Assembly (NCBI GenBank): GCA_018670095.1
Contig: JABHRR010000040.1
Coordinates: forward strand, 7,331 to 71,330
From: Candidatus Woesearchaeota archaeon
GTDB taxonomy: Archaea > Nanobdellota > Nanobdellia > Woesearchaeales > GW2011-AR9
Reading direction: 5' to 3'
Length of the DNA stretch: 64,000 nt
In this document: positions 6,305 through 59,016 of the stretch, in pieces
Position numbering within the stretch: position 1 is the first letter of the stretch
How the letters are laid out: the number at the start of each line of letters is the position of its first letter
The notes under the pieces: model-generated
The model's database searches: none
Told to the model about the DNA's origin: nothing
What the model saw: the letters and a program-made list of their open reading frames with translations, nothing else
Position numbers and translations under genes: made by a program

Positions 6305-6365
6305 TTTAATATTCTCAATATTTAAATTAATGGAAAAAATGGATAATAAAAAATAATAAAAAATC

Positions 6366-40209: not shown

Positions 40210-41854
<1,645 letters not shown>

Positions 41855-43215: not shown

Positions 43216-43650
43216 TCATACTTTAAAGACAAAATATTTGTTAAATAGAAAATTAATAATTGAAACAGTGCCCGCAACAATAACAATGGCAAATAAATAG
43301 TGCCAATTTAATAATTCAGTAGTTAAATAAACTAAAATCCAATTTAAGTCGCTGATAAACAAGATGATGAGAAAAAATAAAATAAAATTACCTTTTTTCT
43401 TAAATGTGATTACAGAGTGATATAAAAATAAAAAAAATATTTCCATGCCTAAAGCAATTGCAAATGAAGCCATATACCAAATATGAACATATTCGGTTAA
43501 AATAAAAGTGATAAATAAATTTAAAAGTAAACTTAATCCTCCGCCAATTAAAAATTTAAAATAACGAAAATAGTTTGAGTTTAATATCTTAGGATTAAAA
43601 TAATTTTGACCCCATTCATTGCTTTTTGTGTAATCCATATTTTTAACCAA
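43216..43650 (-). CDS. GtrA-like small membrane protein (polyprenyl-phosphate sugar flippase component)
   Basis: 144 aa, 4 TM, with the typical GtrA N-terminal GGGLSLLLNL. Confidence 0.6.
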   Translation of the reverse strand: MVKNMDYTKSNEWGQNYFNPKILNSNYFRYFKFLIGGGLSLLLNLFITFILTEYVHIWYMASFAIALGMEIFFLFLYHSVITFKKKGNFILFFLIILFISDLNWILVYLTTELLNWHYLFAIVIVAGTVSIINFLFNKYFVFKV

Positions 43651-43652
43651 AA

Positions 43653-44381
43653 TTAATATTTTCCAAATCTTAATTTTAAGACTCTTAGACCATAATCTTT
43701 TCCTAACCTAAATAAAGTCCCTAAATCACCATCAGATTTAGATACTCCTTCTGTTCTAATGTTATAAACGCAAGGCATTTCGATAATTTTATATCCTGCT
43801 TTTTTTGCTTTGTAAGCAAAATCAATGAAATATTCTCCAAAGCCTTTTCGAGAGAAGTGTACTTTATCAAACACTTCTTTACGAACAGCAGCAAAACCGG
43901 AAGTGTAATCTCTCACCCCAAAACCCAAAAAAGTCATAGCATAAAGATTTATTAAAATGCTAACAAAAACTCTAAATGCCGGCCGAGGATCTTTACCGCC
44001 TTTAACATATCTGGAACCAATAGCAATATCATACTTATCTAACTGAGATACCAAGCCAGGAATCTCTTCAGGAGACAATCCCAAATCACAATCCAACCAA
44101 ACAATAACATCTCCTTGAGCAGCTCTAATCCCATCATCTAAAGCAGAAGCTAAACCTTTCTCATTAATTCTGCGAATAAGTTTTACTTTTGGATTGTTTA
44201 ATTCTTCAACCAATTTCCAGGTTAAATCAGGAGAATTATCATCTACAATAATAATTTCTAATAATTGTTCACAAACAGCATTACTGATCCGATTAATCGC
44301 TTCCACAATATTATCTTTTTCATTATAAGAAGGAAGAATTACAGAGACTTTAAATTCATTAATATTATTATTTGTTTGCAT
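43653..44381 (-). CDS. GT2 polyprenyl-phosphate hexose synthase (DPM1/ArnC-like, soluble form)
   Basis: SVILPSYNE ... IIIVDDNSPD ... WLDCDL (DxD) motifs. Paralog of the 52543..53331 gene. Confidence 0.75.
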   Translation of the reverse strand: MQTNNNINEFKVSVILPSYNEKDNIVEAINRISNAVCEQLLEIIIVDDNSPDLTWKLVEELNNPKVKLIRRINEKGLASALDDGIRAAQGDVIVWLDCDLGLSPEEIPGLVSQLDKYDIAIGSRYVKGGKDPRPAFRVFVSILINLYAMTFLGFGVRDYTSGFAAVRKEVFDKVHFSRKGFGEYFIDFAYKAKKAGYKIIEMPCVYNIRTEGVSKSDGDLGTLFRLGKDYGLRVLKLRFGKY

Positions 44382-45519
44382 TCTCTTCTCTATTCTCTTT
44401 CTGAATCTCTTTTATCTGATTAACAATGAAAATTATTTGCTTATTAGTCAAATGACTAGTAGATGGCAAATAGAACCCTTTAGCTTCCAATTCATCTGAA
44501 CCAGGATAATTTCCAGTAGTGTCCGGAAAACGAGGATCATCACCAAAATAAGCAGGTTGTTTATGCATGCCAATAAAGAAAGTTCTAGTATCAACTCCTC
44601 TTTCTTTTAATTTTTTGCAAAGTTCTGGCATGGTCATTCCAAATTCTGGTTGTACCAAAATGCTGTACATCCAATAAACATTCTTGGCCCAATCTTTTTC
44701 TGGTGGTAAAGTTATCCCTGGAACATCTTTAAGCAGTTCATTGTAAAGATGAGCATTGTTTCTTCTCATCTCAACATAATCATCTAATTTTTCAACCTGA
44801 GCAAGACCAATAGCTGCCTGAAGATTAGTTAAGCGATGATTATATCCTACTTTCTGATGTAAAAATCGAGGTTCACCAAAATAATGGTTTCTTAATTTTC
44901 TTGCTTCCTCAGCAATTTTATCGTTACTTGTTATCACCATACCACCTTCACCGGTTGTAATGAGTTTGTTAGCATAAAAACTAAAACAAGCCACATCACT
45001 TAAACTACCAGCTTTTTTACCTTTGTACTCGGCACCATGCGCTTCAGCAGCATCTTCAATAACAAACAGATTATGTTTGTCAGCAATTTCTTTTACTCTG
45101 TCCATATCAACAGGATGGCCGTAAGTATGGACTACCATAATTGCTTTTGTTTTTTCAGTAATATTTTCTTCAATCTTATCAATGTCCATATTCCAAGTAT
45201 CTAGTTCAGAATCAATTAATACGGGTTTAGCCCCCGAATAAATTATGGCATTAGAAGAGGCAGCCATGGTAAATGTTGGAGTAATCACTTCATCGCCTTT
45301 ACCAATACCAAGAGCTTCAATCGCCAAATGTAAAGCAGTGGTTCCATTTGTACAACTGATTCCATGTTTGACACCACAATAAGCAGCAAACTTTTCTTCA
45401 AACTGTTTTAAGAAAGATCCACCAGAAGAGATCCAGCCGGTTTGCACAGCTTCTGTAACATATTTTAATTCGTTACCTTGTAAAGTCGGTTCACAAACAG
45501 GGATAAAATTTTGATTCAT
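44368..45519 (-). CDS. DegT/DnrJ/EryC1-family sugar aminotransferase (perosamine synthase-like)
   Basis: CFSFYANKLITTGEGG PLP-lysine motif; 14-nt overlap with the downstream GT2 gene. Confidence 0.75.
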   Translation of the reverse strand: MNQNFIPVCEPTLQGNELKYVTEAVQTGWISSGGSFLKQFEEKFAAYCGVKHGISCTNGTTALHLAIEALGIGKGDEVITPTFTMAASSNAIIYSGAKPVLIDSELDTWNMDIDKIEENITEKTKAIMVVHTYGHPVDMDRVKEIADKHNLFVIEDAAEAHGAEYKGKKAGSLSDVACFSFYANKLITTGEGGMVITSNDKIAEEARKLRNHYFGEPRFLHQKVGYNHRLTNLQAAIGLAQVEKLDDYVEMRRNNAHLYNELLKDVPGITLPPEKDWAKNVYWMYSILVQPEFGMTMPELCKKLKERGVDTRTFFIGMHKQPAYFGDDPRFPDTTGNYPGSDELEAKGFYLPSTSHLTNKQIIFIVNQIKEIQKENREENANK

Positions 45520-45980
45520 ATGTAATCACCTTCTTTATTTGTTTCTTTAACGTCTCTTTTCTCGTTCTCTCGGCCCCGATAAGGACCTTGTTTAAGTTCA
45601 ATCACTTTAGTATTATCTTCTAAAAAAGTGAAACCATGACCACAATTAAGAATTATGGAATCTCCTGTATTCACAATCACTTCAGAAATTTTAAGATCAT
45701 TCTCACTTTCATCATAGAGATCAATCTTAATACTTCCTGAGATAATATAAAAAAATTCTTGCACTGGAAAATTTGTCAGTTGAGAAAAAGGAATATGAAC
45801 ATGAGGAGTGCAAACATCACCCTTTGGCCGATTATGCATTCCTACTTGAAATGGAAATTCGTCCGGACTAACAAACAACATACTTTTACCAGATTGTTCC
45901 AATTCTTGCAATGCCTTAGCTCGAGTAACAATTGCGAGAATCTTACCGTTACGCTCTATTCTTTCTATTGAATTTTCCAC
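45516..45980 (-). CDS. WxcM/FdtA-like cupin (NDP-4-keto-6-deoxyhexose 3,4-ketoisomerase), putative
   Basis: 154-aa cupin with the His pair PHVHIP; 4-nt overlap with the aminotransferase gene. Confidence 0.5.
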   Translation of the reverse strand: MENSIERIERNGKILAIVTRAKALQELEQSGKSMLFVSPDEFPFQVGMHNRPKGDVCTPHVHIPFSQLTNFPVQEFFYIISGSIKIDLYDESENDLKISEVIVNTGDSIILNCGHGFTFLEDNTKVIELKQGPYRGRENEKRDVKETNKEGDYI

Positions 45981-46063: not shown

Positions 46064-47782
46064 TCAAAATCTTCTCTTTCTGAAAACAAGATAAAAAACA
46101 AAAGGAATACTTAATATTGCAAGAATAACATCTAACCACAAAATAAAAAATCCAACCCCCTCAACTACTTTTTCAAAACCAGTTGCTTGATAATAATCAA
46201 CAGCTTGTTCTGGATATTTCCAACCAACCGGATAAAACCAAAACTGATGTGTTTTATCAATAGCTTCCAACGCTTCGTTTGGTAAACTGATTTGTCCTTG
46301 ATAAATTAAGAAGTGATGGGTTGCTTTTACTTCGCCCACTGATTGCAAATTTTCTTTGAAATAAGTACTGATTTGTTCTCCAGTATCAAAAACACGTTGA
46401 AAGTCTTCGGGTTTCCAACCACAATTAGTTCCTGGACCACACTCGATATAATACAAAGGCACAGTAACTTTGTTTGGAGCATCTTTAACTTGTTCCATTA
46501 AATCAAAGAAATGCGTTCCTTCAAAATAATGTTTATCATTAAAGACCCATGCATGAATACCACGATAAATTCTAGGATCAATTACAACGACAGCATTGTT
46601 GGGAATGTTTTCGTGTGTATATTCTCGTAATGCTAAGGTTATTGATTGTTCACGTGACTCTTTTAGTTCCGGGATTATAACAAAGAAAGTAATCATTAAT
46701 ATGATGATAATTACAAATGAGCTGAGATGTTTAAAATTAAATTTCTGTTTTATTTTCTCTGATAATAAAAAAATAGAATAAGCAGAAAAAACACTAAATA
46801 TTGCTGAAATCCAAATATAATGACTTCCACTACCTGTCTGGCCAGCTAAATAAACAAAAGGAAAAACAATGGACAAAATAAACAAAGAAGCAACTAAACG
46901 ATTTCTTTTAAAATAATATATTAATCCGAGGAGTCCAAAAATAAAAATAAAAGGTTCTAATTTTAATAATAATAAAATCTTACCGCTGGTTATACTTGTA
47001 AGTTTATCAAATGACCATTCAGTTTTCATCCCTTGATGGACCGTTTCTCCAATTCCTAAAACATTTGAAAAGAAATAATCTGTTATTCCCTTTTCTTGAT
47101 AAACAAGATAATTATAAGAAAATATTGGGATAATTAAAATTATAAAAATTAATGCACAAAAAAGAACTAATTTAATGTTTTTTGGGGACAAAATGAAACT
47201 GCCGTCTTTAACAAGATTACTTTGGGAATACTCTTTAATAATCCAAATGACAGCAAGAATGGGAACAAAAAGAATTGCAATTGGTTTTACTAAAATACCT
47301 AAAGAAAGAAATAAAGTGGCAAGATATAAATGATGATGATTTTTTAACCCACGAATAAAAAATAAAATACTGAGGAAAACAAAAAAATAAGCAAGCATAT
47401 CCATCTCATAATTAAATTTTATTGCATGTCCTGAAAAAGCAAAAAGAAAAGCAGCAAAAAGAGCATTTTTTTTATTGTCAAACAACTCTTTGGCGATTAA
47501 AAAAATAATAAAAACAGAAAGGGCACCAAATATAATTGCAGTTAATCTCAAAGAGATGGGAGTAATCCCACCAAACAATTTATAGCTAATATCTGTAAGA
47601 TAAAAAAATAGAGGTGATTGTTCTATTGTTCCCAATCTATCTGCAGAAATAATATTTAATGGAATAATGGAGTAAATCATCTCATCGGTGGATACATCCG
47701 TATTATTAGCGGCATAAATCCTAATAACAAATGCTAAGATAAATATTATAACCAAAAAGATTAAAGTTTTTGTAACTTTCAT
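46064..47782 (-). CDS. GT-C membrane glycosyltransferase (PMT_2/ArnT-like, GT39/GT83-type), no. 1
   Basis: First-loop acidic motif STDEMIY and the pattern SLRLTAIIFGALSVFIIFLIAKELF typical of ArnT/PMT; many TM helices. Confidence 0.6.
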   Translation of the reverse strand: MKVTKTLIFLVIIFILAFVIRIYAANNTDVSTDEMIYSIIPLNIISADRLGTIEQSPLFFYLTDISYKLFGGITPISLRLTAIIFGALSVFIIFLIAKELFDNKKNALFAAFLFAFSGHAIKFNYEMDMLAYFFVFLSILFFIRGLKNHHHLYLATLFLSLGILVKPIAILFVPILAVIWIIKEYSQSNLVKDGSFILSPKNIKLVLFCALIFIILIIPIFSYNYLVYQEKGITDYFFSNVLGIGETVHQGMKTEWSFDKLTSITSGKILLLLKLEPFIFIFGLLGLIYYFKRNRLVASLFILSIVFPFVYLAGQTGSGSHYIWISAIFSVFSAYSIFLLSEKIKQKFNFKHLSSFVIIIILMITFFVIIPELKESREQSITLALREYTHENIPNNAVVVIDPRIYRGIHAWVFNDKHYFEGTHFFDLMEQVKDAPNKVTVPLYYIECGPGTNCGWKPEDFQRVFDTGEQISTYFKENLQSVGEVKATHHFLIYQGQISLPNEALEAIDKTHQFWFYPVGWKYPEQAVDYYQATGFEKVVEGVGFFILWLDVILAILSIPFVFYLVFRKRRF

Positions 47783-47872: not shown

Positions 47873-48127
47873 TCATTCAAAAACACAAATATACCCATTG
47901 TTTGATTGAGCAACATGTCCTCCAGCACCCAAACAACAATTATTTACTTCTCTAAACTTCTGGCAAAAATCTTCACCTTTAGCAATGCATTTTTTTTGTA
48001 TACAATTATCATAACCACTTTTATCCGTATTTTTCATTGCTCCAATTGAAAAAATAACCATTAAGATAAGTAAGCTATATAATATAAACAATAACGATTT
48101 TTGTCCGAATGATAAATTATTTTCCAT
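47873..48127 (-). CDS. small secreted/membrane-anchored cysteine-rich protein
   Basis: 84 aa, N-terminal hydrophobic anchor, 7 Cys in the C-terminal 45 aa (CIQKKCIAKGEDFCQKFREVNNCC...). Confidence 0.4.
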   Translation of the reverse strand: MENNLSFGQKSLLFILYSLLILMVIFSIGAMKNTDKSGYDNCIQKKCIAKGEDFCQKFREVNNCCLGAGGHVAQSNNGYICVFE

Positions 48128-48136: not shown

Positions 48137-50092
48137 TTACTTAACTGTTAAAGCAATAAATACCCCCTCTTTCTGATAAACAGGTTCAAATAAACCGGAA
48201 TTAATAAAGTCATTATACTTTTCCTGAAGTACGCCCAAGGATTTTTCTTCCCCGACTTCTTTTTTGAAAAATTTCAAGTCGTTCTTTATACTTAATAACA
48301 GATATTTATAATCTTTACTTTTTAAGAACCCATGAAGTTCTTTTGCACTTACATTAATAATCTTTTTTCTGAGTTCAATCTCTTCTTGACACCAATTACA
48401 ACTATATTTCCCAAACCCAACAGCAATTTTTGGTCTTGAAATCATAAAAACTTTTTCATTAACTGGAATTGAATTAAACCAAACACCATACTCAAAAGCC
48501 TCTTGAGGACTATTAAAGAAACTTGAAGTGGGCCAAACAGTAGTGTTATGTTGGATTTTGTAAGTAGCAGAAGTAAAAAAAATGCTAAAAATAATAATTA
48601 GAAGAATAAAAAACCTAATCACTTTTTTCTTACTAAAGAAATCTTTAATGAAGAAAGCACCTTCGGTCGAAACAATTGCAACTGGAATTGCTAATAACAT
48701 CCAAACCCTAAATGCACCTTTAGCAACTGAAAAAGGAAAAGTTATTCCATTAACTCCCCAAAAAGTATATATTAACCAAAATAAAATAATGCAAGCCCAC
48801 GCATTTCTCTTTTTAACAATTGAAGTTTTATACTTCCAAAGCAAATAAATTACACCAACTAAAACTAAAAGACTAATTACTATCCCGATTCCTATTGGAT
48901 TATTAATCATGTTCTCACTTTTTGCAATCATAAAATCTTTCAATGTGTAAGCACGTGAAGCAGAACCTCCGGGATTAACAACTGCAGAAATAGCATTAAC
49001 AATAAAAGATTTTGAGGGGGGAGGCAATGGGGCCCCGGTAATTGTAACAGAAGGAGCAGCGCCAAGTATCCTATAAGAAAAATAATAAGTTAAAAATCCA
49101 AATCTCCCATATTTAAATAACATTGATCCAAACCAAAATAAAGAGATACCAATCCCACCAAAAATAGCACTAAAATGGAAAAATAATATTTTCCGATTAG
49201 CAATAGATAAAATAATAACGTAAATAAAAATAAGGGTTGTTAATTTAATTGGTTGAGAAAAATTTTGTGAAACCCATAGCCCAGCAACCAATAAAGCAGA
49301 AATAACCCACCATCTTTTATCATGTTTGATTCTTTCAAATGCATACATTGTCGGGAAAAATAAAGTAACAATAAATGAATGTGCCCAAATAAAATGGCTA
49401 AGATAACATGGAATTGCAGCTAAAACAAAGGTTGCGAAAAGTGCTTTATTACGATTCCCTACAAATTGCCAGGCAAAGAAAAAGAAAAAAATGAAACCTA
49501 AAGAGATTATTAAAGCATTAAAAAATTTCATAGTCCAGGTTAAATCTGGAGAAGTTTGATGTAAAACTCCTAAGAACACATCATAAGCGGGCGGATAAGG
49601 ATCCAAATAAGACAATACTGGTTCTAATCTTTCTGAATCTTTTGGAGGTGGACCATAAGCAGTCTTTTCAATAGAAACATATTTAATTCCTTCTGAATGG
49701 CCCCAAGGATCTTCATTTTCTAAATAAGGGTAACTAAAAGCACCTTTTGCGTACATATAAAAAGAAGCGAAGAAAATTAATAAAACAATCACAATAATCA
49801 AATTTGATTTGGTTAACTTTAATTTTGGTAATCTTAAATTGCCTGCCTTTACTTTCTTAATCAAATCATAAATAGGAACGATTAAACTTAAAATTAAAAA
49901 TATTTTCCAATCTAATGGAACTCGAAAAAAATTAAGAATGATTGATAATATTGCGAAAATACCTAAACCAATCCCCACATTCATCAAATTTCTTTCTAAT
50001 GCATTTTCAGATTGTTTTACGAAATAGGTAACTGTAAAACCTAATCCCCAAGCATACAAGAAAAATAAAATAATTGTTATTATGCTAACCAT
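48137..50092 (-). CDS. large polytopic membrane protein, GT-C-like glycosyltransferase candidate, no. 2
   Basis: 651 aa, more than 12 TM, acidic ENEDPWGH in an early loop. No WWDYG motif, so not an STT3/AglB oligosaccharyltransferase. Confidence 0.35.
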   Translation of the reverse strand: MVSIITIILFFLYAWGLGFTVTYFVKQSENALERNLMNVGIGLGIFAILSIILNFFRVPLDWKIFLILSLIVPIYDLIKKVKAGNLRLPKLKLTKSNLIIVIVLLIFFASFYMYAKGAFSYPYLENEDPWGHSEGIKYVSIEKTAYGPPPKDSERLEPVLSYLDPYPPAYDVFLGVLHQTSPDLTWTMKFFNALIISLGFIFFFFFAWQFVGNRNKALFATFVLAAIPCYLSHFIWAHSFIVTLFFPTMYAFERIKHDKRWWVISALLVAGLWVSQNFSQPIKLTTLIFIYVIILSIANRKILFFHFSAIFGGIGISLFWFGSMLFKYGRFGFLTYYFSYRILGAAPSVTITGAPLPPPSKSFIVNAISAVVNPGGSASRAYTLKDFMIAKSENMINNPIGIGIVISLLVLVGVIYLLWKYKTSIVKKRNAWACIILFWLIYTFWGVNGITFPFSVAKGAFRVWMLLAIPVAIVSTEGAFFIKDFFSKKKVIRFFILLIIIFSIFFTSATYKIQHNTTVWPTSSFFNSPQEAFEYGVWFNSIPVNEKVFMISRPKIAVGFGKYSCNWCQEEIELRKKIINVSAKELHGFLKSKDYKYLLLSIKNDLKFFKKEVGEEKSLGVLQEKYNDFINSGLFEPVYQKEGVFIALTVK

Positions 50093-50173: not shown

Positions 50174-51643
50174 TCAAATTTTGGAATTATAATAATATAA
50201 ATCTAATTCTTTATAACTTTCCGAATAAATTAAATTATACTTATCTTTCAATAACTTAACGTAATAATCACCCGTTTTTATATTTCTTGAAGAAATAAGC
50301 CAAAATTCTTTTTTCTGATTTAATAAACTAAATAACTGAGACTCATTTATTTTAATTAATTCCCTTTTATTTTCCCAAGTAAGCTTAATCTGGTCATATC
50401 CCCTATACAATTCAGTATCCCAATAATAATCGAACAAAAGAACATTAGAACCAGAACGATCAAATAAAATTAAAGGTTTACTTGAAGAATGTTCTTTAAT
50501 AGTGATTACTGCTTCATCCCAGGGGGCTTTGGTAGTTTCACCATAATATAGGGTTAGAGTAAAAAAGTTAAAAATTAAGATTAAAAAAACAATTATTATT
50601 TGAGTTCTCTTTAATTTTAATAGGCTTATTACTTTTGCAACTAAAACATAAAAGAAGGGAATAATAAAAAAAGAATGTCTTACTAAAGCAAAAGATCTTG
50701 TAATTGTATCCATTAAAAATAAATGAATTATTCCAATGAATGCTAAAGAAACAAATGTAACCCAAATTATAGTATTATTTTTAGGCATTTTAAATGAATA
50801 TTTTCTAAACAAAACAAGAATGCCGATTGTAAATAATAGAAGTAAAATTAACGGAAGTAAATAAAAACCAACACCCAGATTACTTAAAAAAACTGGCACA
50901 CCCCTTAAAACTAAACTTTCTTGTAAAATGGGATGACGAATCATTGTTTGAATAAATAATATTTGTAATCCGGGAATAAAGAAAATGATTGAAATTATTG
51001 CCGAAGAAAAGTGATTTTTTAAATTCAGGTGAGATTTGTGTTCCCGGTAATAAAAAAATAAAATTAAAGAATGGAAGATGATTACAAATAAAGCCATGTA
51101 GTTAGTATACAGCAGTATGGCATTTACCAATGAATAACCAAACAGAAAATAAATTTTCTTTCTTTTGTTGAGAGGAGTTTGAGATAATAATATAAATAAA
51201 TAAGTTGAAAGCAAAACTAAAAACCCAAACAAAGCATAAGGCCTTGCTTCTTGAGCATAAACAATTTGTAACATTGTTGTTGAGAAAATTAAAGCACTAA
51301 TTAGACCTACTTTTTTGTTAAAAACTTTTGCCCCTAAAAGATAAATTAAAATCACTGATAAAGAGTCAAAGAATGCTGATAAAAAACGTAAAGAGAACTC
51401 ACTAGTTCCAAATAAAGATGCCCAATACTTTAAGGTTATAAAATAACCAGGAGGCATTAATTCAGTGTAAATCACAGAATCAATTAACCCTTTATAATTT
51501 TCTTTCTGAGTATGAATTAAAGAAACCATCTCATCTGTCCATAAAGATTCTGTACTTAAATCATAAAAACGTAAGGTAGCACCTAAAATTACAATTAGAA
51601 ATAAAATCAAATAAACTTTTTTCTTATTTTTTTCCAAATTCAT
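50174..51643 (-). CDS. GT-C membrane glycosyltransferase (PMT_2/ArnT-like), no. 3
   Basis: LRFYDLSTESLWTDEM acidic first-loop motif; YWASLFGTSEFSLRFLSAFFDSLSVILIYLL. Confidence 0.65.
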   Translation of the reverse strand: MNLEKNKKKVYLILFLIVILGATLRFYDLSTESLWTDEMVSLIHTQKENYKGLIDSVIYTELMPPGYFITLKYWASLFGTSEFSLRFLSAFFDSLSVILIYLLGAKVFNKKVGLISALIFSTTMLQIVYAQEARPYALFGFLVLLSTYLFILLSQTPLNKRKKIYFLFGYSLVNAILLYTNYMALFVIIFHSLILFFYYREHKSHLNLKNHFSSAIISIIFFIPGLQILFIQTMIRHPILQESLVLRGVPVFLSNLGVGFYLLPLILLLLFTIGILVLFRKYSFKMPKNNTIIWVTFVSLAFIGIIHLFLMDTITRSFALVRHSFFIIPFFYVLVAKVISLLKLKRTQIIIVFLILIFNFFTLTLYYGETTKAPWDEAVITIKEHSSSKPLILFDRSGSNVLLFDYYWDTELYRGYDQIKLTWENKRELIKINESQLFSLLNQKKEFWLISSRNIKTGDYYVKLLKDKYNLIYSESYKELDLYYYNSKI

Positions 51644-51663
51644 GGTTCACCTTTTTGTACGCA

Positions 51664-52509
51664 TTACATATATTTAAAAAAATCTTTAAAAGTTATTAAC
51701 TTATTTCCTTTTCTCTTTAACTGACTAAAATCTTCTTTGGTAGGCATCCTAGTCATCGTGGCTTTTTCTTCATCTTGTTTAAATGAGATTAGTTCATTAT
51801 CACCATTATGATTAACATTAGCATAATTATTGATAAACTCATTTAACATAAAACCAAATGATTGCGCTAATTTATGATGGAGTTCATACATGGATATGTT
51901 TTGATTATAATCGAACTTCTTTTGAAAAATAATATTACCAGTATCTAATCCGGCCTCCATAAAATGAATAGTTACCCCATATTGCTGATCTCCATTAAAT
52001 AGATACCAAAAATATTGAGCGGCACCCCTATATTCTGGAAGATAAGAACCATGAGCATTAATCAACTTATTGCCAAGAGTTTCAAAAACGTTCTTTCTTA
52101 AAATTTGGGCTACCAAACAAAGCACATAATTGGGATTTAATTCTTTAACGTTATTTAAAAAATCATTATCACTAAGATTGTTTGTTTTAATTATAGGGAT
52201 ATTATATTGACTAGCTAAGTCTTCAATAGTCTTAGCAGAATCATTTTGATACTTTTTTGTTTTTGTTAATTTATGACCTAGCAAGAGATAGTTATAAACT
52301 TTTGATTCCAATAATTTGTAAAAGAAAAAACTAAATGAAGATTTTTTTGTAAGTTTATAGGCAACTTTTAGTTGATCAGTAAATGATTCCCCTTTAAATT
52401 GACTAGCAAGGACAATTGCTTTGAGTCTATCTGAGTTATTTATTAAGACTTCTCTTGTAGCCACTATAGAAGCCATTGTATTCTGAGTGAAAACGATAAT
52501 ATCTTTCAT
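51664..52509 (-). CDS. formyltransferase-family protein (sugar N-formyltransferase / ArnA-FT / Fmt N-domain-like)
   Basis: NAHGSYLPEYRGAAQYFW and GVTIHFMEAGLDTGNII match the N10-formyl-THF binding and catalytic motifs. Confidence 0.65.
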   Translation of the reverse strand: MKDIIVFTQNTMASIVATREVLINNSDRLKAIVLASQFKGESFTDQLKVAYKLTKKSSFSFFFYKLLESKVYNYLLLGHKLTKTKKYQNDSAKTIEDLASQYNIPIIKTNNLSDNDFLNNVKELNPNYVLCLVAQILRKNVFETLGNKLINAHGSYLPEYRGAAQYFWYLFNGDQQYGVTIHFMEAGLDTGNIIFQKKFDYNQNISMYELHHKLAQSFGFMLNEFINNYANVNHNGDNELISFKQDEEKATMTRMPTKEDFSQLKRKGNKLITFKDFFKYM

Positions 52510-52542
52510 CTTTTGTTTATCAAATGATAACTTTTGTAAAAA

Positions 52543-53331
52543 TTAAATCTTTTTAAATCTCAGTTCAATTATTCTTTTCAAATATAACATCCCATACTTG
52601 AAAAGGCCAGATAAAGTATCAGCAGTTTTTGATTGTCCTGCCCTTCTATCAACAAAAGGATATCCTACCTCTTTGATTTTGTATCCTTTCTTTCCTGCAG
52701 TATAAAGAAATTCAATACAATATTCTCCATAAGCAGAGTCAGAAAGAGTTATTTTCTCAAGGACCTCTTTTTTTGCAGCAATAAAACCACTATCATAATC
52801 CAACACATTAAAGTTAAGGACGATATTAGTAAAGACGTTGATAAATCTACTTGATACAACCCTTAACAAAGGCCGTTTATCTTTACCACCTTTAGCATAC
52901 CTTGAACCAACAACAACATCGTAATGATCAAATTTCTGTAACATTCGCGGGATTAATTCTGGAGGCATAGATTGATCTGCATCCATCCAAACAACATATT
53001 TGCCCTTTGCTTCTTTAATAGCATTTGAGATTGATTTGACTAAACCTCGATCTTCTAATCTTCTGATTACTTTCACATCAAAAGAGTTTAAATCTTCTGC
53101 AATTTTCCAAGTACCATCTGGACTATTATCATCAACAACAATAATCTCTTTAGAATGATTAACTAAAGCTTGTTGTGTTCTTTGAATTAATGGGATTATG
53201 TTTTCTGCTTCGTTATATGTTGGAAATATAACTGAAACCTCAATTTCTGAATTACTGATATCTTTTCCCATATTTTTTACCATATCTGTTTCTATTGCTT
53301 TCCCTATTGTCTTTTTTATTATTTTTTCCAT
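52543..53331 (-). CDS. GT2 polyprenyl-phosphate hexose synthase (ArnC/DPM1-like, soluble form)
   Basis: VSVIFPTYNE ... IIVVDDNSPD ... WMDADQ. Paralog of the 43653..44381 gene. Confidence 0.75.
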   Translation of the reverse strand: MEKIIKKTIGKAIETDMVKNMGKDISNSEIEVSVIFPTYNEAENIIPLIQRTQQALVNHSKEIIVVDDNSPDGTWKIAEDLNSFDVKVIRRLEDRGLVKSISNAIKEAKGKYVVWMDADQSMPPELIPRMLQKFDHYDVVVGSRYAKGGKDKRPLLRVVSSRFINVFTNIVLNFNVLDYDSGFIAAKKEVLEKITLSDSAYGEYCIEFLYTAGKKGYKIKEVGYPFVDRRAGQSKTADTLSGLFKYGMLYLKRIIELRFKKI

Positions 53332-53424
53332 TTCTTTAAAGAAACTCTAATCTTTTATTTTATATACTTTTTGGAAGAGTGATTAACATATTAAAGTTAA
53401 TGTATCACAAGTTTTTAAAGTGAT

Positions 53425-54897
53425 TTGGTTTCATTTAGGTTAAGAATGGAAGAATTAAGAAAGAATATTAAGTTGGAAAGGGATTCTATGAGTAATAATG
53501 AAGTAATATTAAAAAGTAAACAGATTAAAGAAAGAATATTGACTTTTTCTTTGTTTAATCAATCTAATTCTATAATGTTTTATTACCAAAAAGGAAATGA
53601 AGTTAACTTAAATGGTTTAATGAGTTCACAATTAAATCATCAAAAAAGAAAGATAATTCTTCCGAAAACAAATAAAGATGATTTTTCAATGAAAAGTTAT
53701 CAAATAAATAATTTAAGTGAAGATTTGGAGAATGGCGCATTTGGAATCATGGAACCAAAAAAAGATTGTTTAGAAATTAACAAAGAACAAATTGACCTTG
53801 TTTTTGTTCCTGGGGTTGCTTTTGACTTAGCTGGAAATAGATTGGGTCATGGGTTAGGTTATTACGATCGATTTCTTGAAGATTTTAATGGGATTAAAGT
53901 GGGGGTTGCTTACGATTTTCAGATAGTTGATTCCATAAAAGTTAAAAGCCATGATGTGCCAATGGATTATGTCATAACAGAAAAGAGGGTCATTAAAACT
54001 AATCGAGAACAAAATAAAATGGGACAATTATTATCAGGAAAAGAATTATCTGAAAAAATATTAACGGCACTTAAAGAAAAAGTAGAAATACTAGAAAATA
54101 AACCAACTTTAGCGATTGTTTCTGTAGGAGAAGATCTAGCATCTAAGATTTATATCAAAAAAAAACTTAAAATTGCAGAAAAAATTGGTGTAAAAGCGCG
54201 ACATTACAAACTAAACGAAGAAACAAAAGAAGAAGAATTGTTAGGTTTGATTGAGAAGCTAAATAAGGATGATAATGTTGATGGATTTATTGTTCAATTA
54301 CCTTTACCAAAACAGATTAATGAAAATAAAGTAATTAATAGTATTAATCCCAGAAAAGATGTGGATGGTTTCCATCCAATAAATATGGGTAAAATATTCT
54401 TAGAGATCTTTGAAGAAGAAACAGATATGATTCCCGCTACGCCTTACGGGATAATGAAAATTATTGAATATTATAATCTTGATTTAGAAGGGAAAAAAGT
54501 TGTTATTGTTGGCAAAAGTAATATTGTGGGTAAACCAATTGCCCAATTGATGCTGATGAAGAATGCCACAGTAACTATTGCCCATAAAAAAACTAATAAT
54601 CTTGCTGAACATACAAAGGATGCAGACATAATTGTTGTTGCCGTTGGAAAAGAAAAACTTATTACTGCTGACATGGTCAAAGAAGGTGTGATAGTGATTG
54701 ATGTGGGGATGAACCGAACTGAAGAAGGTAAGATTGTTGGAGATGTTGATTTTGAGAATGTTAAAGAGAAAGCATCACTCATCACTCCAGTTCCTGGAGG
54801 AGTAGGACCAATGACGGTTACGATGTTACTTTATAATCTTGTAAAGACTAAAATAACAATGAGAAAAGTATCTAATGAAGAAGATAAATCTTTATAA
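53425..54897 (+). CDS. fusion: 5-formyltetrahydrofolate cyclo-ligase + methylene-THF dehydrogenase/methenyl-THF cyclohydrolase (FolD)
   Basis: N-terminal DLVFVPGVAFDLAGNRLGHGLGYYDRF (MTHFS signature). C-terminal FolD motifs ASKIYIKKK, DGFIVQLPLP, VVIVGKSNIVGKP, PGGVGPMT. Confidence 0.8.
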   Translation: MVSFRLRMEELRKNIKLERDSMSNNEVILKSKQIKERILTFSLFNQSNSIMFYYQKGNEVNLNGLMSSQLNHQKRKIILPKTNKDDFSMKSYQINNLSEDLENGAFGIMEPKKDCLEINKEQIDLVFVPGVAFDLAGNRLGHGLGYYDRFLEDFNGIKVGVAYDFQIVDSIKVKSHDVPMDYVITEKRVIKTNREQNKMGQLLSGKELSEKILTALKEKVEILENKPTLAIVSVGEDLASKIYIKKKLKIAEKIGVKARHYKLNEETKEEELLGLIEKLNKDDNVDGFIVQLPLPKQINENKVINSINPRKDVDGFHPINMGKIFLEIFEEETDMIPATPYGIMKIIEYYNLDLEGKKVVIVGKSNIVGKPIAQLMLMKNATVTIAHKKTNNLAEHTKDADIIVVAVGKEKLITADMVKEGVIVIDVGMNRTEEGKIVGDVDFENVKEKASLITPVPGGVGPMTVTMLLYNLVKTKITMRKVSNEEDKSL

Positions 54898-54938: not shown

Positions 54939-55826
54939 GTGAAAACAATGAAAATAATAATATCCATACCGGCATATAACGAAGAGAAAACATTACCTCG
55001 AGTTTTAGAAGAGATTAAAGAAGTAATGAGTAATACAAATTATAATTATGAGTTCTTGATTCTTGATGATGGTTCAAAAGATAAAACAGTAGAAGTAGCC
55101 GAGAAACAAGGAGCAATAGTAGTTTCTAACAGAAGAAATTTGGGTTTAGCGGAAACTTTCAAAAAAGAAATGACTGAATGTCTAAAAAGAAAAGCAGAGA
55201 TTATTGTTCATACTGATGCGGATGGACAATATCATCCTCAACACATTCCGGAACTGATTAAAAAAGTTGAAGAGGGTCACGATTTAGTTTTAGGAAGTAG
55301 ATTTAAAAGAAATATCAGACATATGCCATTTCTCAAAAAGATTGGAAATATGGCTTTTGCTAAAGTGATTAGTTCTTTAACCAAAGTTAAAATTACGGAT
55401 TCCACAACTGGTTATCGTGCTTTCACAGCAGAAGTTGCTAGAAACATTAGTTTTATTAATACATTTACTTACACTCAAGAACAAATTATTAAAGCTGCCA
55501 AACAAGGTTTTAAAATAACTGAAGTCCCGATAGTTTGTAGAAAAACTAGAGAAAGTAGATTATTTAAAAATCCGTTTCAATATGCAATTAAAGCTTGGAT
55601 AAATATATTCAGAATTTATCGTGATTATCAACCATTAAAATTTTTTGGGCAGATTGGAGGAATTTTCTTTTTATTAGGATTCCTATTGGGAATTTACATT
55701 ACTATTACTTTTATTCTTACAGGGGTCGTTGGTGGAATTCCTAGAGTGATTCTAAGTATGCTTTTGATGTTAACGGGAATTCAGATAATTTTGTTTGGAT
55801 TTTTTGCGGATATGTTACATAAATGA
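54939..55826 (+). CDS. GT2 polyprenyl-phosphate sugar synthase with C-terminal TM helices (GtrB-like)
   Basis: ISIPAYNEE ... LILDDGSKD ... two C-terminal TM helices. Confidence 0.7.
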   Translation: MKTMKIIISIPAYNEEKTLPRVLEEIKEVMSNTNYNYEFLILDDGSKDKTVEVAEKQGAIVVSNRRNLGLAETFKKEMTECLKRKAEIIVHTDADGQYHPQHIPELIKKVEEGHDLVLGSRFKRNIRHMPFLKKIGNMAFAKVISSLTKVKITDSTTGYRAFTAEVARNISFINTFTYTQEQIIKAAKQGFKITEVPIVCRKTRESRLFKNPFQYAIKAWINIFRIYRDYQPLKFFGQIGGIFFLLGFLLGIYITITFILTGVVGGIPRVILSMLLMLTGIQIILFGFFADMLHK

Positions 55827-57384: not shown

Positions 57385-58122
57385 TTACTTTTCTAATCTT
57401 TCATATTTAAATATGATCCAAAATTGATAAAATAATTTTCTTACCAGTTCCAATGATAACGCAAGAGCATAAACCCACAAGATAATTTCTGGAAACCCAA
57501 ATAAAACACCAAAAAACATTAAGTTAAAAGGATTATCCATTAACAAAAAATCAGAAATTATTGACAATAAACCCCTCTTCTGACTTTTTAAAGAGATATT
57601 TTCCCCAAAAATAAGTTTGGTCATTTCATTTCTCTGATTAATATTACCATACCAGGCCAAATTAATTGTTAATGCTTTAGATAATAAGAATGTAAATGTT
57701 GCAATTCCAGAAGCAATAAAGATTATTAAATCACCAGTCTGATTATAAATCCCTAAAGCTAAAGCAATCAATAATAATGAATTACATAAATAATGACCAA
57801 TATAGTCAAGATACATCCCATTTAAAGAGTAATGTTTTCTATACCTTGCTACAATTCCATCAACACCATCAATAATGGAAGCTAATTGAAAAATTAAAAG
57901 TGAAAAAACTGTAACTAAATATCCTCCTTTAGCAATAAAGAATAAAGTAATTAGTTTAATTAAAATCCACAAAATAGTAATTTGATTAGGAGTGAAAGGT
58001 AAGTATAAAAATATCTTTGCAGGATAAAAAGCTAGATAATCACACATGGGATTAAGAAAACCATTTGTACTCTTTTTTGCATATAATTTCCTTAACTCTT
58101 TGATTTTAGGTATTTTATTCAT
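57385..58122 (-). CDS. CDP-alcohol phosphatidyltransferase (DIPPS/AIPS-like)
   Basis: IDGVDGIVARYRKHYSLNGMYLDYIGHYL fits the CDP-OH-P-transferase motif; about 6 TM. Confidence 0.7.
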   Translation of the reverse strand: MNKIPKIKELRKLYAKKSTNGFLNPMCDYLAFYPAKIFLYLPFTPNQITILWILIKLITLFFIAKGGYLVTVFSLLIFQLASIIDGVDGIVARYRKHYSLNGMYLDYIGHYLCNSLLLIALALGIYNQTGDLIIFIASGIATFTFLLSKALTINLAWYGNINQRNEMTKLIFGENISLKSQKRGLLSIISDFLLMDNPFNLMFFGVLFGFPEIILWVYALALSLELVRKLFYQFWIIFKYERLEK

Positions 58123-59002: not shown

Positions 59003-59016
59003 AATATTTAATTTAT

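What the first reader, a model, noticed from the sequence alone, without database searches (positions are those of the whole stretch)
50174..54897. Arn-like N-formyl-aminosugar module coupled to a dedicated fused 5-formyl-THF cyclo-ligase/FolD protein
An ArnT-like GT-C (50174..51643), an Fmt/ArnA-type formyltransferase (51664..52509) and an ArnC-like GT2 (52543..53331) reproduce the logic of the polymyxin-resistance Arn pathway: formylation of an amino sugar nucleotide, transfer to polyprenyl phosphate, then GT-C transfer. Directly downstream on the other strand is a single ORF fusing 5-formyltetrahydrofolate cyclo-ligase with bifunctional FolD. That fusion would convert 5-formyl-THF or methylene-THF into the N10-formyl-THF the formyltransferase needs. 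I do not know of a described MTHFS-FolD fusion. Its position suggests a formyl-donor supply dedicated to glycan N-formylation.
Basis: partly seen in the sequence, partly recalled or inferred. Interest (0 to 1): 0.65.

Follow-up and report, generated by a model that had tools for sequence, protein, structure and literature searches.

The report
Fused folate enzyme beside formyl-sugar genes
In an uncultured DPANN (Woesearchaeota-type) archaeon, two neighbouring folate genes have fused into one enzyme that should make the formyl donor 10-formyl-tetrahydrofolate, and it sits beside a conserved, Arn-like operon predicted to put an N-formylated amino sugar on the cell surface; this is an interesting variant of known systems, not a new kind.

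Summary
All four ORFs exist, and 53425/53446..54897 is one uninterrupted ORF: 5-formyl-THF cyclo-ligase (MTHFS) followed by both FolD domains. The same ORF appears in independent assemblies.

The fusion is not unique. At least 13 clusters at 50% identity have this domain order and 3 have the reverse order. There are also DHFR-MTHFS-FolD, MTHFS-FolD-PHP and MTHFS-FolD-formyltransferase proteins. I found no paper describing any of them.

Relatives whose formyltransferase is 67-68% identical keep MTHFS and FolD as separate adjacent genes at the same position. The window's fusion is therefore recent. A second fusion, in L019, looks independent.

The formyltransferase belongs to a DPANN-specific family of about 275 residues. 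It always lies in a cupin-DegT-GT2-formyltransferase-GT-C module, in the same order as arnB-C-A-T. Every Arn equivalog test fails, so the module works like Arn without being Arn.

Folate genes (MTHFS, ±SHMT, FolD, ±FolC) flank this module in 9 of 11 informative lineages. Elsewhere the same fusion sits in a purine operon next to PurN and PurH.

Best reading: a portable 10-formyl-THF supply cassette placed next to its consumer. Coupling to the formyltransferase is likely. Exclusive dedication to the glycan is unproven.

The parts
53446..54897 (+). MTHFS-FolD fusion gene (483 aa from the ATG; the mechanical ORF starts at TTG 53425). It is predicted to convert 5-formyl-THF (with ATP) and 5,10-methylene-THF (with NADP+) via 5,10-methenyl-THF into 10-formyl-THF.
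   Evidence: Three Pfam domains in one frame. Homologues P0001-P0004 have the same architecture and start at the ATG. There is no stop at the junction.
53452..53982 (+). 5-formyltetrahydrofolate cyclo-ligase (MTHFS) domain.
   Evidence: PF01812, 145.5 bits, E 2.2e-42, covering profile positions 3-186 of 186. The GNRLGxGxGYYD motif and residues R5, E52 and D141 are invariant among 15 fusion proteins.
53983..54030 (+). Linker of about 16 residues (..KTNREQNKMGQ..). It retains the Met that starts the free-standing FolD gene in relatives.
   Evidence: In L007 the MTHFS gene ends ...IEIRIKKA*, an untranslated spacer of about 75 nt follows, and FolD starts MVQLLKGKE. In the window this stretch is read through.
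54031..54849 (+). FolD: methylene-THF dehydrogenase / methenyl-THF cyclohydrolase catalytic domain plus NAD(P)-binding domain.
   Evidence: PF00763 at 125 bits and PF02882 at 225 bits. The best NCBIfam FolD models score about 356 bits. The S233-Y236-K240 motif, QLPLP and DVDG are invariant.
53332..53445 (.). AT-rich divergent intergenic region of 114 bp between the fusion gene and the GT2-formyltransferase-GT-C operon. It probably holds promoters for both directions.
   Evidence: Sequence read. The head-to-head arrangement is the same in L007, L008, L012-L014 and L017-L020. Promoter function is inferred, not tested.
54939..55826 (+). GT2 of 295 aa with two C-terminal TM helices (GtrB/ArnC/AglJ architecture). 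It starts 42 bp after the fusion gene on the same strand and follows FolD in every relative.
   Evidence: PF00535, E 4.7e-26. AglJ model at 151 bits and ArnC model at 78 bits, both below cut-off. Full-length PDB matches to GtrB (3e-20), Dol-P-Man synthase and ArnC. Two TM segments. Synteny.
52543..53331 (-). GT2 of 262 aa without TM helices: the catalytic domain of a polyprenyl-phosphate sugar synthase. First gene of the operon.
   Evidence: PF00535, E 1.5e-34. Best PDB match is P. furiosus Dol-P-Man synthase 5mlz at 1.7e-37, then GtrB at 1e-12 and ArnC at 7e-12. No TM segment. It lies immediately upstream of the formyltransferase in all loci.
51664..52509 (-). N10-formyl-THF-type formyltransferase of 281 aa, a member of a DPANN-specific family of about 275 residues. 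Predicted amino-sugar N-formyltransferase.
   Evidence: PF00551, E 1.6e-22. The family is P0379-P0408 at 41-90% identity; scores then drop to Fmt at 103 bits or less. N151, H153 and D189 are invariant. The AF2 model has pLDDT 89.9. The top Foldseek hit is the ArnA formyltransferase domain at E 1.4e-13.
50174..51643 (-). GT-C glycosyltransferase of 489 aa (PMT_2 / ArnT-like superfamily) with a conserved WTDE motif after TM1.
   Evidence: PF13231, E 4.6e-11. The ArnT model scores only 27.5 bits against a cut-off of 567. Ten TM-like segments. W35, T36, D37 and E38 are invariant in 11 orthologues.
48137..50092 (-). Conserved polytopic membrane protein of 651 aa and unknown family. It may be a distant GT-C.
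   Evidence: No Pfam, NCBIfam or PDB hit. Eleven TM-like segments. hhalign against the 572-aa GT-C family gives probability 82.5%, E 1e-5. It is present in 9 related loci.
47873..48127 (-). Small protein of 84 aa with one TM helix and a Cys-rich tail. It always lies between the 651-aa protein and the second GT-C.
46064..47782 (-). Second GT-C glycosyltransferase, 572 aa (PMT_2/PMT), a paralogue of the 489-aa protein.
   Evidence: PF13231 at 1.7e-16 and PF02366 at 2.3e-7. hhalign against the 489-aa family gives probability 99%, E 5e-18.
45516..45980 (-). Cupin of 154 aa with an invariant HxH...E...H pattern. It always lies directly upstream of the DegT aminotransferase. Candidate NDP-keto-sugar isomerase or epimerase (inferred).
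   Evidence: Weak Cupin_2 and WbuC-family hits. Alignment of 12 members. No PDB or FdtA match.
44368..45519 (-). DegT/DnrJ/EryC1-family PLP sugar aminotransferase (383 aa). It makes the amino group that is then formylated.
   Evidence: PF01041, E 2e-125. NCBIfam scores: LegC family 348 bits, PseC 287, ArnB 240, all below cut-off.
43653..44381 (-). Third polyprenyl-phosphate-type GT2 (242 aa), a paralogue of the 262-aa GT2.
   Evidence: PF00535, E 1.8e-36. The best NCBIfam model is ArnC at 68 bits, below cut-off. It scores 224 bits against the 262-aa GT2.
43216..43650 (-). GtrA/DPMS-TM family four-helix membrane protein (144 aa). Candidate flippase or membrane partner of the TM-less GT2s.
   Evidence: PF04138, E 9e-11. 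Four TM segments. The same position is occupied in L008, L012, L013 and L016.
40210..41331 (-). GDP-mannose 4,6-dehydratase-like SDR (373 aa). Possible source of the 4-keto-6-deoxy sugar nucleotide. A second copy lies at 36743..37879(+).
   Evidence: TIGR01472 gmd scores 382 and 410 bits against a cut-off of 415. Any link to the formyltransferase is inferred only.

Best explanation
**What it is.** The locus belongs to a DPANN (Woesearchaeota/Nanoarchaeia-type) archaeon and holds two divergently transcribed units.

**Unit 1 (minus strand, 53331 down to 43216).** This is a three-component, Arn-like extracytoplasmic glycosylation system.
1. An NDP-keto sugar, possibly GDP-4-keto-6-deoxymannose, is processed by the cupin and aminated by DegT.
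2. The 281-aa formyltransferase N-formylates the amine, using 10-formyl-THF.
3. A polyprenyl-phosphate GT2 loads the sugar onto dolichyl phosphate.
4. A GtrA-type protein helps move it across the membrane.
5. The GT-C enzymes (489 aa, 572 aa, perhaps 651 aa) transfer it to a surface acceptor.

**Unit 2 (plus strand).** This is the MTHFS-FolD fusion followed by a GtrB/ArnC-type GT2.
- The MTHFS half uses ATP to convert 5-formyl-THF into 5,10-methenyl-THF. 5-formyl-THF is the stable storage or salvage folate and a by-product of SHMT.
- The FolD half makes the same intermediate from 5,10-methylene-THF and hydrolyses it to 10-formyl-THF.
- The fusion therefore funnels two folate pools into the donor that the formyltransferase consumes.

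**How it arose.** The fusion formed recently by read-through of two adjacent genes in a folate island (MTHFS, SHMT, FolD, FolC) that is ancestrally parked next to this module.

**Shown:** ORFs, domains, intact catalytic motifs, synteny, and the split-to-fused history.
**Inferred:** the substrates, the direction of flux, which GT2 carries the formamido sugar, and the acceptor.
For: **The fusion is real and intact**
- Domains, continuous frame and catalytic motifs.
- The same ORF appears in independent assemblies.

**Split-to-fused history**
- L007 and L014 (formyltransferase 67-68% identical) have MTHFS (191/208 aa) and FolD (282/284 aa) as separate genes at the same position.
- In the FolD tree, the window and L013 fusion is sister to these unfused genes.

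**Conserved coupling to the module**
- Folate genes lie head-to-head with GT2-formyltransferase-GT-C in the window, L013, L014, L007, L020, L019, L008/L018, L017 and L012. That is 9 of 11 informative lineages with formyltransferase identity of 56% or more.
- FolD is always followed by the 295-aa GT2.

**Independent links between this fusion and formyl consumers**
- P0142 is MTHFS-FolD-Formyl_trans_N in one protein. It sits among NeuB (two copies), a CMP-sugar synthetase, PIG-L and a second formyltransferase.
- P0271 is the same fusion placed between PurF-PurD and PurN-PurH. L046 is the unfused version of that operon.

**The formyltransferase**
- An N-H-D triad is invariant.
- ArnA formyltransferase is the top sequence and fold hit, followed by Fmt and the sugar N-formyltransferases FdtF, QdtF, WlaRD and WbkC.
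- It always sits next to DegT, GT2 and GT-C.

**Glycan machinery**
- The GT2s match Dol-P-Man synthase, GtrB and ArnC.
- GtrA is present, and the GT-Cs carry PMT_2.

**Context**
- The rest of the 64-kb window is glycan biosynthesis and contains no other formyltransferase or folate user.
- N-formylated sugars do occur on archaeal S-layer glycans (PMC6137143).
- The three-component scheme is established in bacteria (PMC11127046).
Against: - No biochemistry exists for any of these proteins.
- Synteny with folate genes is confined to one DPANN sub-clade. The more distant members L009, L010 and L011 (formyltransferase 33-51% identical) and L015 have the module but no folate genes within the available flank.
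- The island also contains SHMT and FolC in relatives, which suggests a general C1 set and not a private supply.
- Some Woesearchaeota have near-complete purine pathways (PMC8421398). Other 10-formyl-THF consumers may therefore exist elsewhere in this genome, and the whole genome could not be inspected.
- L017 has MTHFS, SHMT and FolC but no FolD at the site. L020 lacks MTHFS there.
- The 262-aa GT2 is most like Dol-P-Man synthase, so it may carry plain mannose.
- No ArnD-like deformylase is present.
- The sugar identity is unknown, and the cupin matches no known ketoisomerase.
Confidence: 0.6

Rival explanations
1. Housekeeping reading. The MTHFS-FolD protein is simply the cell's only general C1-folate interconversion and folinate-recycling enzyme. 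It serves thymidylate, purine or amino-acid metabolism. Its position next to the glycan operon is inherited gene order within one clade and has no special functional link.
For: - In relatives the island also carries SHMT and FolC, the core of general folate metabolism.
- The same fusion lies in a purine operon in another archaeon.
- Distant members of the formyltransferase module lack folate neighbours.
- Some Woesearchaeota encode purine synthesis (PMC8421398).
Against: - The adjacency persists across formyltransferase identities of 56-100%, despite rearrangements inside the island: loss of SHMT, presence or absence of FolC, and two separate fusions.
- The folate genes are co-oriented with, and followed by, a glycosyltransferase in every case.
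- An independent MTHFS-FolD-formyltransferase protein exists in a sugar cluster.
- In a background sample of 80 MTHFS loci, only 9 had FolD or SHMT adjacent and none was fused.
- The only 10-formyl-THF consumer in the 64-kb window is the sugar-type formyltransferase.
Confidence: 0.3
2. Decoupled glycan reading. The TM-less GT2 and the PMT_2 GT-Cs form an ordinary Dol-P-mannose synthase plus protein or lipid mannosyltransferase system. The formyltransferase makes an NDP-formamido sugar that cytoplasmic Leloir glycosyltransferases use elsewhere in the island, so there is no Arn-like lipid-linked formamido sugar.
For: - The 262-aa GT2 matches P. furiosus Dol-P-Man synthase at 1.7e-37, far better than it matches ArnC at 7e-12.
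- The GT-Cs hit PMT and PMT_2.
- Many GT4 and GT2 Leloir enzymes lie in the window.
Against: - The order DegT-GT2-formyltransferase-GT-C is kept as a tight, often overlapping block down to 33% formyltransferase identity (L009, L011), mirroring arnB-C-A-T.
- That conservation is hard to explain if the GT2 and GT-C handled an unrelated sugar.
Confidence: 0.2
3. Different-substrate reading. The formyltransferase formylates a lipid-linked amino sugar or a non-sugar amine (lipid head group or peptide) at the membrane, not a nucleotide sugar.
For: - The family has a conserved helical insert of about 60 residues that is absent from ArnA, Fmt and sugar N-formyltransferases.
- Identity to any characterised formyltransferase is only 17-22%.
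Against: - The insert is not clearly amphipathic and the protein has no TM segment.
- The nearest structural relatives all use soluble nucleotide-linked or tRNA-linked amines.
- The gene always lies beside a sugar aminotransferase.
Confidence: 0.1
4. Artefact reading. The fusion results from a sequencing or assembly frameshift that joined two separate genes.
For: Close relatives do have two separate genes.
Against: - The same continuous ORF occurs in P0001, P0002, P0003 (25 contigs from 4 sources) and P0004.
- The linker is in frame, and the other two frames contain many stops.
- Many unrelated lineages carry the same architecture.
Confidence: 0.02

Closest known systems
Arn (PmrHFIJKLM) pathway for 4-amino-4-deoxy-L-arabinose modification of lipid A in Enterobacteria
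   Same: - The enzyme classes and their gene order match: PLP aminotransferase (ArnB/DegT), polyprenyl-phosphate GT2 (ArnC), N10-formyl-THF formyltransferase (ArnA N-terminal domain) and a GT-C transferase (ArnT).
- The ArnA formyltransferase domain is the best sequence and fold match of the window's formyltransferase.
   Different: - No protein reaches the Arn equivalog scores.
- The formyltransferase has no fused decarboxylase domain.
- There is no ArnD deformylase and no ArnE/F; a GtrA-family protein is present instead.
- The host is an archaeon, which uses dolichyl phosphate and has no lipid A.
- The locus has two or three GT-Cs and three GT2s.
- A cupin is always paired with the aminotransferase.
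- The sugar is probably a 6-deoxyhexose, not arabinose.
Three-component extracytoplasmic glycosylation systems (GtrA/GtrB/GtrC type; PMC11127046)
   Same: - All three components are present in one cluster: a polyprenyl-phosphate GT2, a small GtrA-family membrane protein and a GT-C fold transferase.
- The 295-aa GT2 aligns full-length with GtrB.
   Different: - Described systems are bacterial and mostly move unmodified hexoses or pentofuranoses.
- This one is archaeal, includes sugar-nucleotide tailoring (aminotransferase plus formyltransferase), and is linked to folate genes.
Sugar N-formyltransferases (WlaRD, FdtF, QdtF, VioF, WbkC, PseJ)
   Same: - Same Formyl_trans_N fold and N-H-D catalytic triad.
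- Same kind of genomic partnership with a DegT-family aminotransferase.
   Different: - Identity is only 14-20%.
- This is a distinct family of about 275 residues restricted to DPANN, with a conserved helical insert of about 60 residues.
- Its substrate is unknown.
Stand-alone FolD and MTHFS (YgfA / 5-FCL), and eukaryotic multifunctional C1-THF synthase (MTHFD1)
   Same: - Each half is a canonical member of its Pfam family with intact catalytic motifs.
- Like MTHFD1, the protein fuses consecutive C1-folate steps that share 5,10-methenyl-THF or 10-formyl-THF.
   Different: - MTHFD1 fuses FolD with formate-THF ligase. Here the partner is the ATP-dependent 5-formyl-THF cyclo-ligase.
- I found no paper describing this combination, although it is present in sequence databases.
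Archaeal Dol-P-mannose synthase (P. furiosus DPMS, 5mlz) plus PMT-type GT-C mannosyltransferases
   Same: - The 262-aa GT2 matches the DPMS catalytic domain at E 1.7e-37.
- GtrA corresponds to the DPMS TM domain family.
- The GT-Cs carry PMT_2.
   Different: - The catalytic and TM parts are separate genes here.
- The genes are locked to an aminotransferase and a formyltransferase, which a mannose pathway does not need.

Membership tests
5-formyltetrahydrofolate cyclo-ligase (PF01812) | Full-length match above the Pfam gathering score, with the conserved GNRxGxGxGYYD nucleotide/folate-site motif | tested here: met
   145.5 bits against a cut-off of 27, covering profile positions 3-186 of 186. 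The motif AGNRLGHGLGYYD is present, and R132, G134, G136, G138 and D141 are invariant in 15 fusion proteins.
FolD (PF00763 + PF02882) | Both domains above gathering score, with the S-x-x-Y-x-x-x-K, QLPLP and DVDG catalytic motifs and the NAD(P) loop | tested here: met
   125 and 225 bits. S233, Y236, K240, Q284-P288 and D305/D307 are invariant. NCBIfam FolD equivalogs reach 356 bits at best, below their narrow lineage-specific cut-offs of 333-559 for most models.
FolD / MTHFS enzymatic activity | Measured dehydrogenase, cyclohydrolase and cyclo-ligase activities | not testable with these tools
   Requires enzyme assays.
ArnA (bifunctional UDP-Ara4N formyltransferase / UDP-GlcA decarboxylase) | NCBIfam equivalog score, and an N-terminal formyltransferase fused to a C-terminal SDR decarboxylase | tested here: not met
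   NF005998 scores 77.7 bits against a cut-off of 777. The protein is 281 aa with one domain.
ArnA formyltransferase domain / N10-formyl-THF transferase superfamily | Formyl_trans_N fold with the Asn-His-Asp catalytic triad | tested here: met
   PF00551 at 80.6 bits. N151, H153 and D189 are invariant in 25 family members. Foldseek top hit is 5j63 (ArnA formyltransferase), E 1.4e-13, TM about 0.6.
Methionyl-tRNA formyltransferase (Fmt) | C-terminal tRNA-binding domain (PF02911) and the TIGR00460 equivalog score | tested here: not met
   No PF02911. TIGR00460 scores 91.6 bits against a cut-off of 201.5. The true Fmt hits all carry PF02911. The host is an archaeon.
ArnC (Und-P Ara4FN transferase) | NCBIfam equivalog score, and a GT2 domain plus two C-terminal TM helices | tested here: not met
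   NF007986 scores 60.4 bits (262-aa GT2), 68.3 bits (242-aa GT2) and 78.4 bits (295-aa GT2) against a cut-off of 529. The 262-aa protein has no TM helix; only the 295-aa protein has the two-TM architecture.
ArnT (GT83 lipid A Ara4N transferase) | NCBIfam equivalog score | tested here: not met
   NF009784 scores 27.5 bits against a cut-off of 567. No sequence match to any PDB chain. Only the broad PMT_2 GT-C domain is met.
Arn pathway as a whole | Presence of the ArnD deformylase and the ArnE/F flippase | tested here: not met
   No polysaccharide-deacetylase or EamA/SMR-type hit among the neighbours scanned. A GtrA-family protein is present instead.
Three-component polyprenyl-phosphate glycosylation system | A polyprenyl-phosphate GT2, a GtrA-like small membrane protein and a GT-C transferase in one cluster | tested here: met
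   GT2s match DPMS, GtrB and ArnC structures. PF04138 GtrA scores 42 bits. PMT_2 GT-Cs are present. The cluster is conserved.
Sugar N-formyltransferases (WlaRD/FdtF/QdtF/WbkC/PseJ) | Activity on an NDP-amino sugar | not testable with these tools
   Only fold similarity, weak sequence similarity (PseJ 2.6e-13, QdtF 5.6e-11, WbkC 2.6e-9) and conserved adjacency to DegT.

The most novel reading that the evidence does not exclude
In this DPANN lineage the folate C1 branch (FolC, SHMT, MTHFS, FolD) is retained mainly to formylate a surface sugar. On this reading, the fused MTHFS-FolD channels salvaged, host-derived 5-formyl-THF (folinate) directly into 10-formyl-THF for the glycan formyltransferase. 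A vitamin-salvage enzyme would then be dedicated to cell-surface decoration in a genome-reduced symbiont. The repeated independent MTHFS-FolD fusions (with DHFR, PHP or formyltransferase added in some lineages) would mark an uncharacterised, widespread 'formyl-donor supply' enzyme class.
Probability: 0.25. Interest if true: 0.65.

Novelty: new variant of a known kind. Interest (0 to 1): 0.45.

Why it matters
- **An uncharacterised multifunctional folate enzyme.** The fusion joins consecutive steps around 5,10-methenyl-THF. It recurs in many uncultured archaea, in both domain orders, and has arisen several times independently. That pattern suggests selection for channelling or co-regulation of 10-formyl-THF supply.
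- **A link between vitamin metabolism and surface glycans.** Its conserved position next to an Arn-like module gives a testable hypothesis about why genome-reduced DPANN archaea keep FolD and MTHFS. These archaea are thought to depend on hosts, and archaea do not use formyl-methionine.
- **New families to characterise.** The work also defines a DPANN-specific sugar-type formyltransferase family and a conserved 10-gene surface-glycosylation operon. That operon includes two unannotated membrane proteins and a cupin, all candidates for biochemical study.

Tried and rejected
1. **Profile search for more fusions.** It returned almost only FolD-only proteins, because the word prefilter keeps the 8000 most word-similar candidates. 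It added just P0142 and P0271.
2. **Structure of the 651-aa membrane protein.** The single-sequence model was useless at pLDDT 43.6, so no fold search was run. hhalign against the GT-C families gave only a moderate signal.
3. **Cupin family.** PDB and Pfam searches gave only generic cupin hits and no FdtA/QdtA match. The proposed ketoisomerase role remains a guess.
4. **Metagenome scan with all 16 MTHFS domains.** It failed for lack of a conserved stretch. The narrower scan returned mostly bacterial stand-alone MTHFS genes. These served as a background sample (0 of 80 fused) but gave no new fusion contexts.
5. **Literature.** No description of an MTHFS-FolD fusion was found. One archaeal fusion survey mentions FolD only as a split component of an unspecified singleton fusion.
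6. **Membrane anchoring of the formyltransferase insert.** A hydrophobic-moment scan gave no clear support for an amphipathic helix.
7. **RNA genes.** tRNA and Rfam scans of the window found nothing.
8. **Promoters.** The sigma-70 promoter scan was not used because the host is an archaeon.
9. **Second folD or purine genes elsewhere in the genome.** This could not be checked, because only 64 kb plus flanks of 10 kb or less from relatives were accessible.

Full report
**1. The observation**

Pfam gives these assignments:
- 50174..51643(-): PMT_2, a GT-C family.
- 51664..52509(-): Formyl_trans_N only, with no Formyl_trans_C.
- 52543..53331(-): Glycos_transf_2.
- 53425..54897(+): 5-FTHF_cyc-lig (residues 10-186, E 2e-42), then THF_DHG_CYH (203-314) and THF_DHG_CYH_C (317-475).

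The DNA across the junction is one open frame...DYVITEKRVIKTNREQNKMGQLLSGKE..., and the other two frames are full of stops. The same fused protein was predicted independently from ENA, JGI, NCBI and Logan assemblies: P0001 at 100% identity, P0002 at 95%, P0003 at 84% on 25 contigs, and P0004. It is therefore not an assembly artefact. Homologues start at the ATG at 53446, giving 483 aa. P0003 is labelled Candidatus Woesearchaeota archaeon, and all related loci come from DPANN MAGs.

**2. The fusion is not unique, but it appears undescribed**

An exhaustive HMMER search of 1.84 billion cluster representatives, followed by Pfam scans and alignment, gave:
- At least 13 clusters at 50% identity with the order MTHFS-FolD, at 33-46% identity to the window protein.
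- Three clusters with the reverse order FolD-MTHFS (P0125, P0126, P0139).
- Three triple fusions: DHFR-MTHFS-FolD (P0128), MTHFS-FolD-PHP (P0130) and MTHFS-FolD-Formyl_trans_N (P0142).

The catalytic motifs of both halves are invariant across the fusions. These are GNRxGxGxGYYD in MTHFS, and S-Y-K, QLPLP and DVDG in FolD.

In a background sample of 80 MTHFS loci from metagenomes, none was fused and only 9 had FolD or SHMT next door. The architecture is therefore rare but recurrent.

Full-text searches found no paper describing it. A survey of archaeal fusions mentions FolD only as a component of an unspecified singleton fusion.

**3. How the fusion arose**

The formyltransferase family was used to fetch related loci, and gene order was scored with local phmmer searches.
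- Relatives with a formyltransferase 67-68% identical (L007, L014) have MTHFS (191/208 aa) and FolD (282/284 aa) as separate, adjacent, co-oriented genes at exactly the position of the window's fusion.
- In L007, MTHFS ends with a stop, about 75 nt of spacer follow, and FolD starts MVQLLKGKE. In the window the spacer is translated and the former start Met is retained.
- More distant relatives (L008/L018, L012; 56-59%) have MTHFS-SHMT-FolD, with FolC divergently placed.
- L019 (60%) has a second fusion of 450 aa with a different linker. Its FolD domain groups with the unfused SHMT-containing loci.

A neighbour-joining tree of FolD domains, without bootstrap support, suggests at least five independent fusion events overall.

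**4. The glycan module**

The 281-aa formyltransferase belongs to a tight, DPANN-only family of about 275-residue proteins at 41-90% identity. Below that, scores fall abruptly to bacterial Fmt, which carries the extra tRNA-binding domain that this family lacks.
- N151, H153 and D189 are invariant.
- The AlphaFold model is confident at pLDDT 89.9.
- Its best structural matches are the ArnA formyltransferase domain (E 1.4e-13, TM about 0.6), then Fmt, then the sugar N-formyltransferases FdtF, QdtF, WlaRD and WbkC, all at 14-22% identity.
- The family has its own conserved helical insert of about 60 residues.

In all Woesearchaeota-type loci the operon runs: GT2(262) - formyltransferase - GT-C(489) - 651-aa membrane protein - 84-aa Cys-rich protein - GT-C(572) - cupin - DegT - GT2(242) - GtrA. 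In the most distant members (L009, L010, L011; 33-51%) the core cupin-DegT-GT2-formyltransferase(-GT-C) remains. That is the order of arnB-arnC-arnA-arnT.

For the individual components:
- The 262-aa GT2 has no TM helix and matches the catalytic domain of P. furiosus Dol-P-Man synthase at 1.7e-37, with GtrB and ArnC far behind.
- The 295-aa GT2 downstream of the fusion has the full GtrB/ArnC architecture with two C-terminal TM helices.
- The two PMT_2 proteins are paralogues.
- The 651-aa protein is at best a distant GT-C.
- None of the proteins reaches the ArnA, ArnC or ArnT equivalog cut-offs, and no ArnD-type deformylase is present.

The module therefore works like Arn, or more generally like a three-component polyprenyl-phosphate glycosylation system (PMC11127046), but it is not Arn. 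Two Gmd-like dehydratases nearby make a GDP-4-keto-6-deoxymannose-derived amino sugar plausible but unproven. The cupin matches no known ketoisomerase.

**5. Is the folate enzyme coupled to the formyltransferase?**

*Evidence for coupling*
- Folate genes lie head-to-head with the GT2-formyltransferase-GT-C operon in 9 of 11 informative lineages with formyltransferase identity of 56% or more. This holds despite internal rearrangements.
- FolD is always followed, on the same strand, by the 295-aa glycosyltransferase.
- P0142 fuses MTHFS-FolD to a formyltransferase domain. It sits among nonulosonic-acid sugar genes (NeuB twice, a CMP-sugar synthetase, PIG-L) and a second formyltransferase.
- P0271 places the fusion between PurF-PurD and PurN-PurH, and L046 is the unfused version of that operon. 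The MTHFS and FolD pair therefore tends to sit next to whichever enzyme consumes 10-formyl-THF.
- The whole 64-kb window is a surface-glycan island: GT4s, a sulfotransferase, PAPS synthesis, further aminotransferases and flippases. The only formyl-THF consumer in it is this formyltransferase.
- By established enzymology, MTHFS yields 5,10-methenyl-THF, the substrate of the FolD cyclohydrolase, which yields 10-formyl-THF. The fusion thus joins consecutive steps.
- Archaea do not formylate Met-tRNA, which removes one usual consumer. This rests on established knowledge.
- N-formylated sugars are known on archaeal S-layer glycans (PMC6137143).

*Evidence against exclusive dedication*
- SHMT and FolC in the ancestral island look like general C1 metabolism.
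- Distant formyltransferase modules lack folate neighbours.
- Some Woesearchaeota have purine pathways (PMC8421398).
- I could not inspect the rest of this genome.

**6. Verdict**

- The Arn-like logic is supported as an analogy. Membership of the Arn families is rejected.
- The fusion is real, recent and recurrent. It is present in databases but apparently uncharacterised.
- Functional coupling of the folate cassette to the sugar formyltransferase is the best-supported reading, at about 0.6. A supply dedicated only to the glycan is possible, at about 0.25, but unproven.
- I class the finding as a new variant of known kinds, of moderate interest.

Noticed in passing
window 7511-10306 (+): One 931-aa ORF fuses a pyruvate-kinase barrel, PUA_2, ATP-sulfurylase and APS kinase: a PAPS synthase with a PK domain attached. 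A sulfotransferase lies at 3058-3879. The same fusion occurs in relatives (L001 17826-20627, 933 aa) and, without the APS kinase, in L007 2105-4372 (755 aa).
   Followed up: no
L007 15374-end; L011 4897-7272: In two relatives, the DegT aminotransferase of the conserved module is interrupted by an intein (PT-HINT / Intein_splicing hits; products of 773+ and 791 aa). The window's copy (44368-45519) has none.
   Followed up: no
window 17507-19123 (-), 19991-22039 (-), 12071-13510 (+): Further multidomain sugar-pathway fusions: Hexapep acyltransferase + DegT (538 aa), CTP_transf_3 cytidylyltransferase + class-III aminotransferase (682 aa), and NTP_transf_5 + thymidylate-kinase-like (479 aa).
   Followed up: no
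proteins P0128, P0130, P0142, P0125/P0126/P0139 (representative library): Other folate fusions seen in metagenomes: DHFR-MTHFS-FolD (609 aa), MTHFS-FolD-PHP (737 aa), MTHFS-FolD-formyltransferase (680 aa) and reverse-order FolD-MTHFS (466-473 aa).
   Followed up: partly
window 48137-50092 (-) and 47873-48127 (-): A 651-aa polytopic membrane protein with no family assignment and a conserved CxWC in its C-terminal part, plus an 84-aa single-TM Cys-rich protein. Both always lie between the two GT-C genes in relatives.
   Followed up: partly
L001 12461-17008; L008 1-1434; L012 1-1873: In relatives, the GT2 downstream of FolD is followed by a very large protein of up to 1515 aa. It combines CTP_transf_like, PPDK_N/PEP-utilizer and NTP_transferase domains. 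The window has a Wzx-type flippase (55833-57317) at that position instead.
   Followed up: no
L015, L017, L018, L019, L020 (record titles): These MAGs are titled 'uncultured Methanosarcinales archaeon' but carry the same locus as Woesearchaeota/Nanoarchaeia MAGs, at 58-67% formyltransferase identity. The taxonomic label looks doubtful.
   Followed up: no
window 57385-61578: A CDP-alcohol phosphatidyltransferase, an NTP transferase most like inositol-1-phosphate cytidylyltransferase (120 bits), a PfkB kinase and a myo-inositol-1-phosphate synthase. Together these form an inositol-phosphate head-group or solute gene set beside the glycan island.
   Followed up: no
window 4677-7280 (-): A phosphonate-type ABC transporter (substrate-binding protein, ATPase and permease) embedded in the glycan island.
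   Followed up: no
L046 9851-13405: A metagenome contig with unfused MTHFS, FolD, PurN and probably PurH in one overlapping operon. It is the split counterpart of the purine-operon fusion P0271 (L005).
   Followed up: partly
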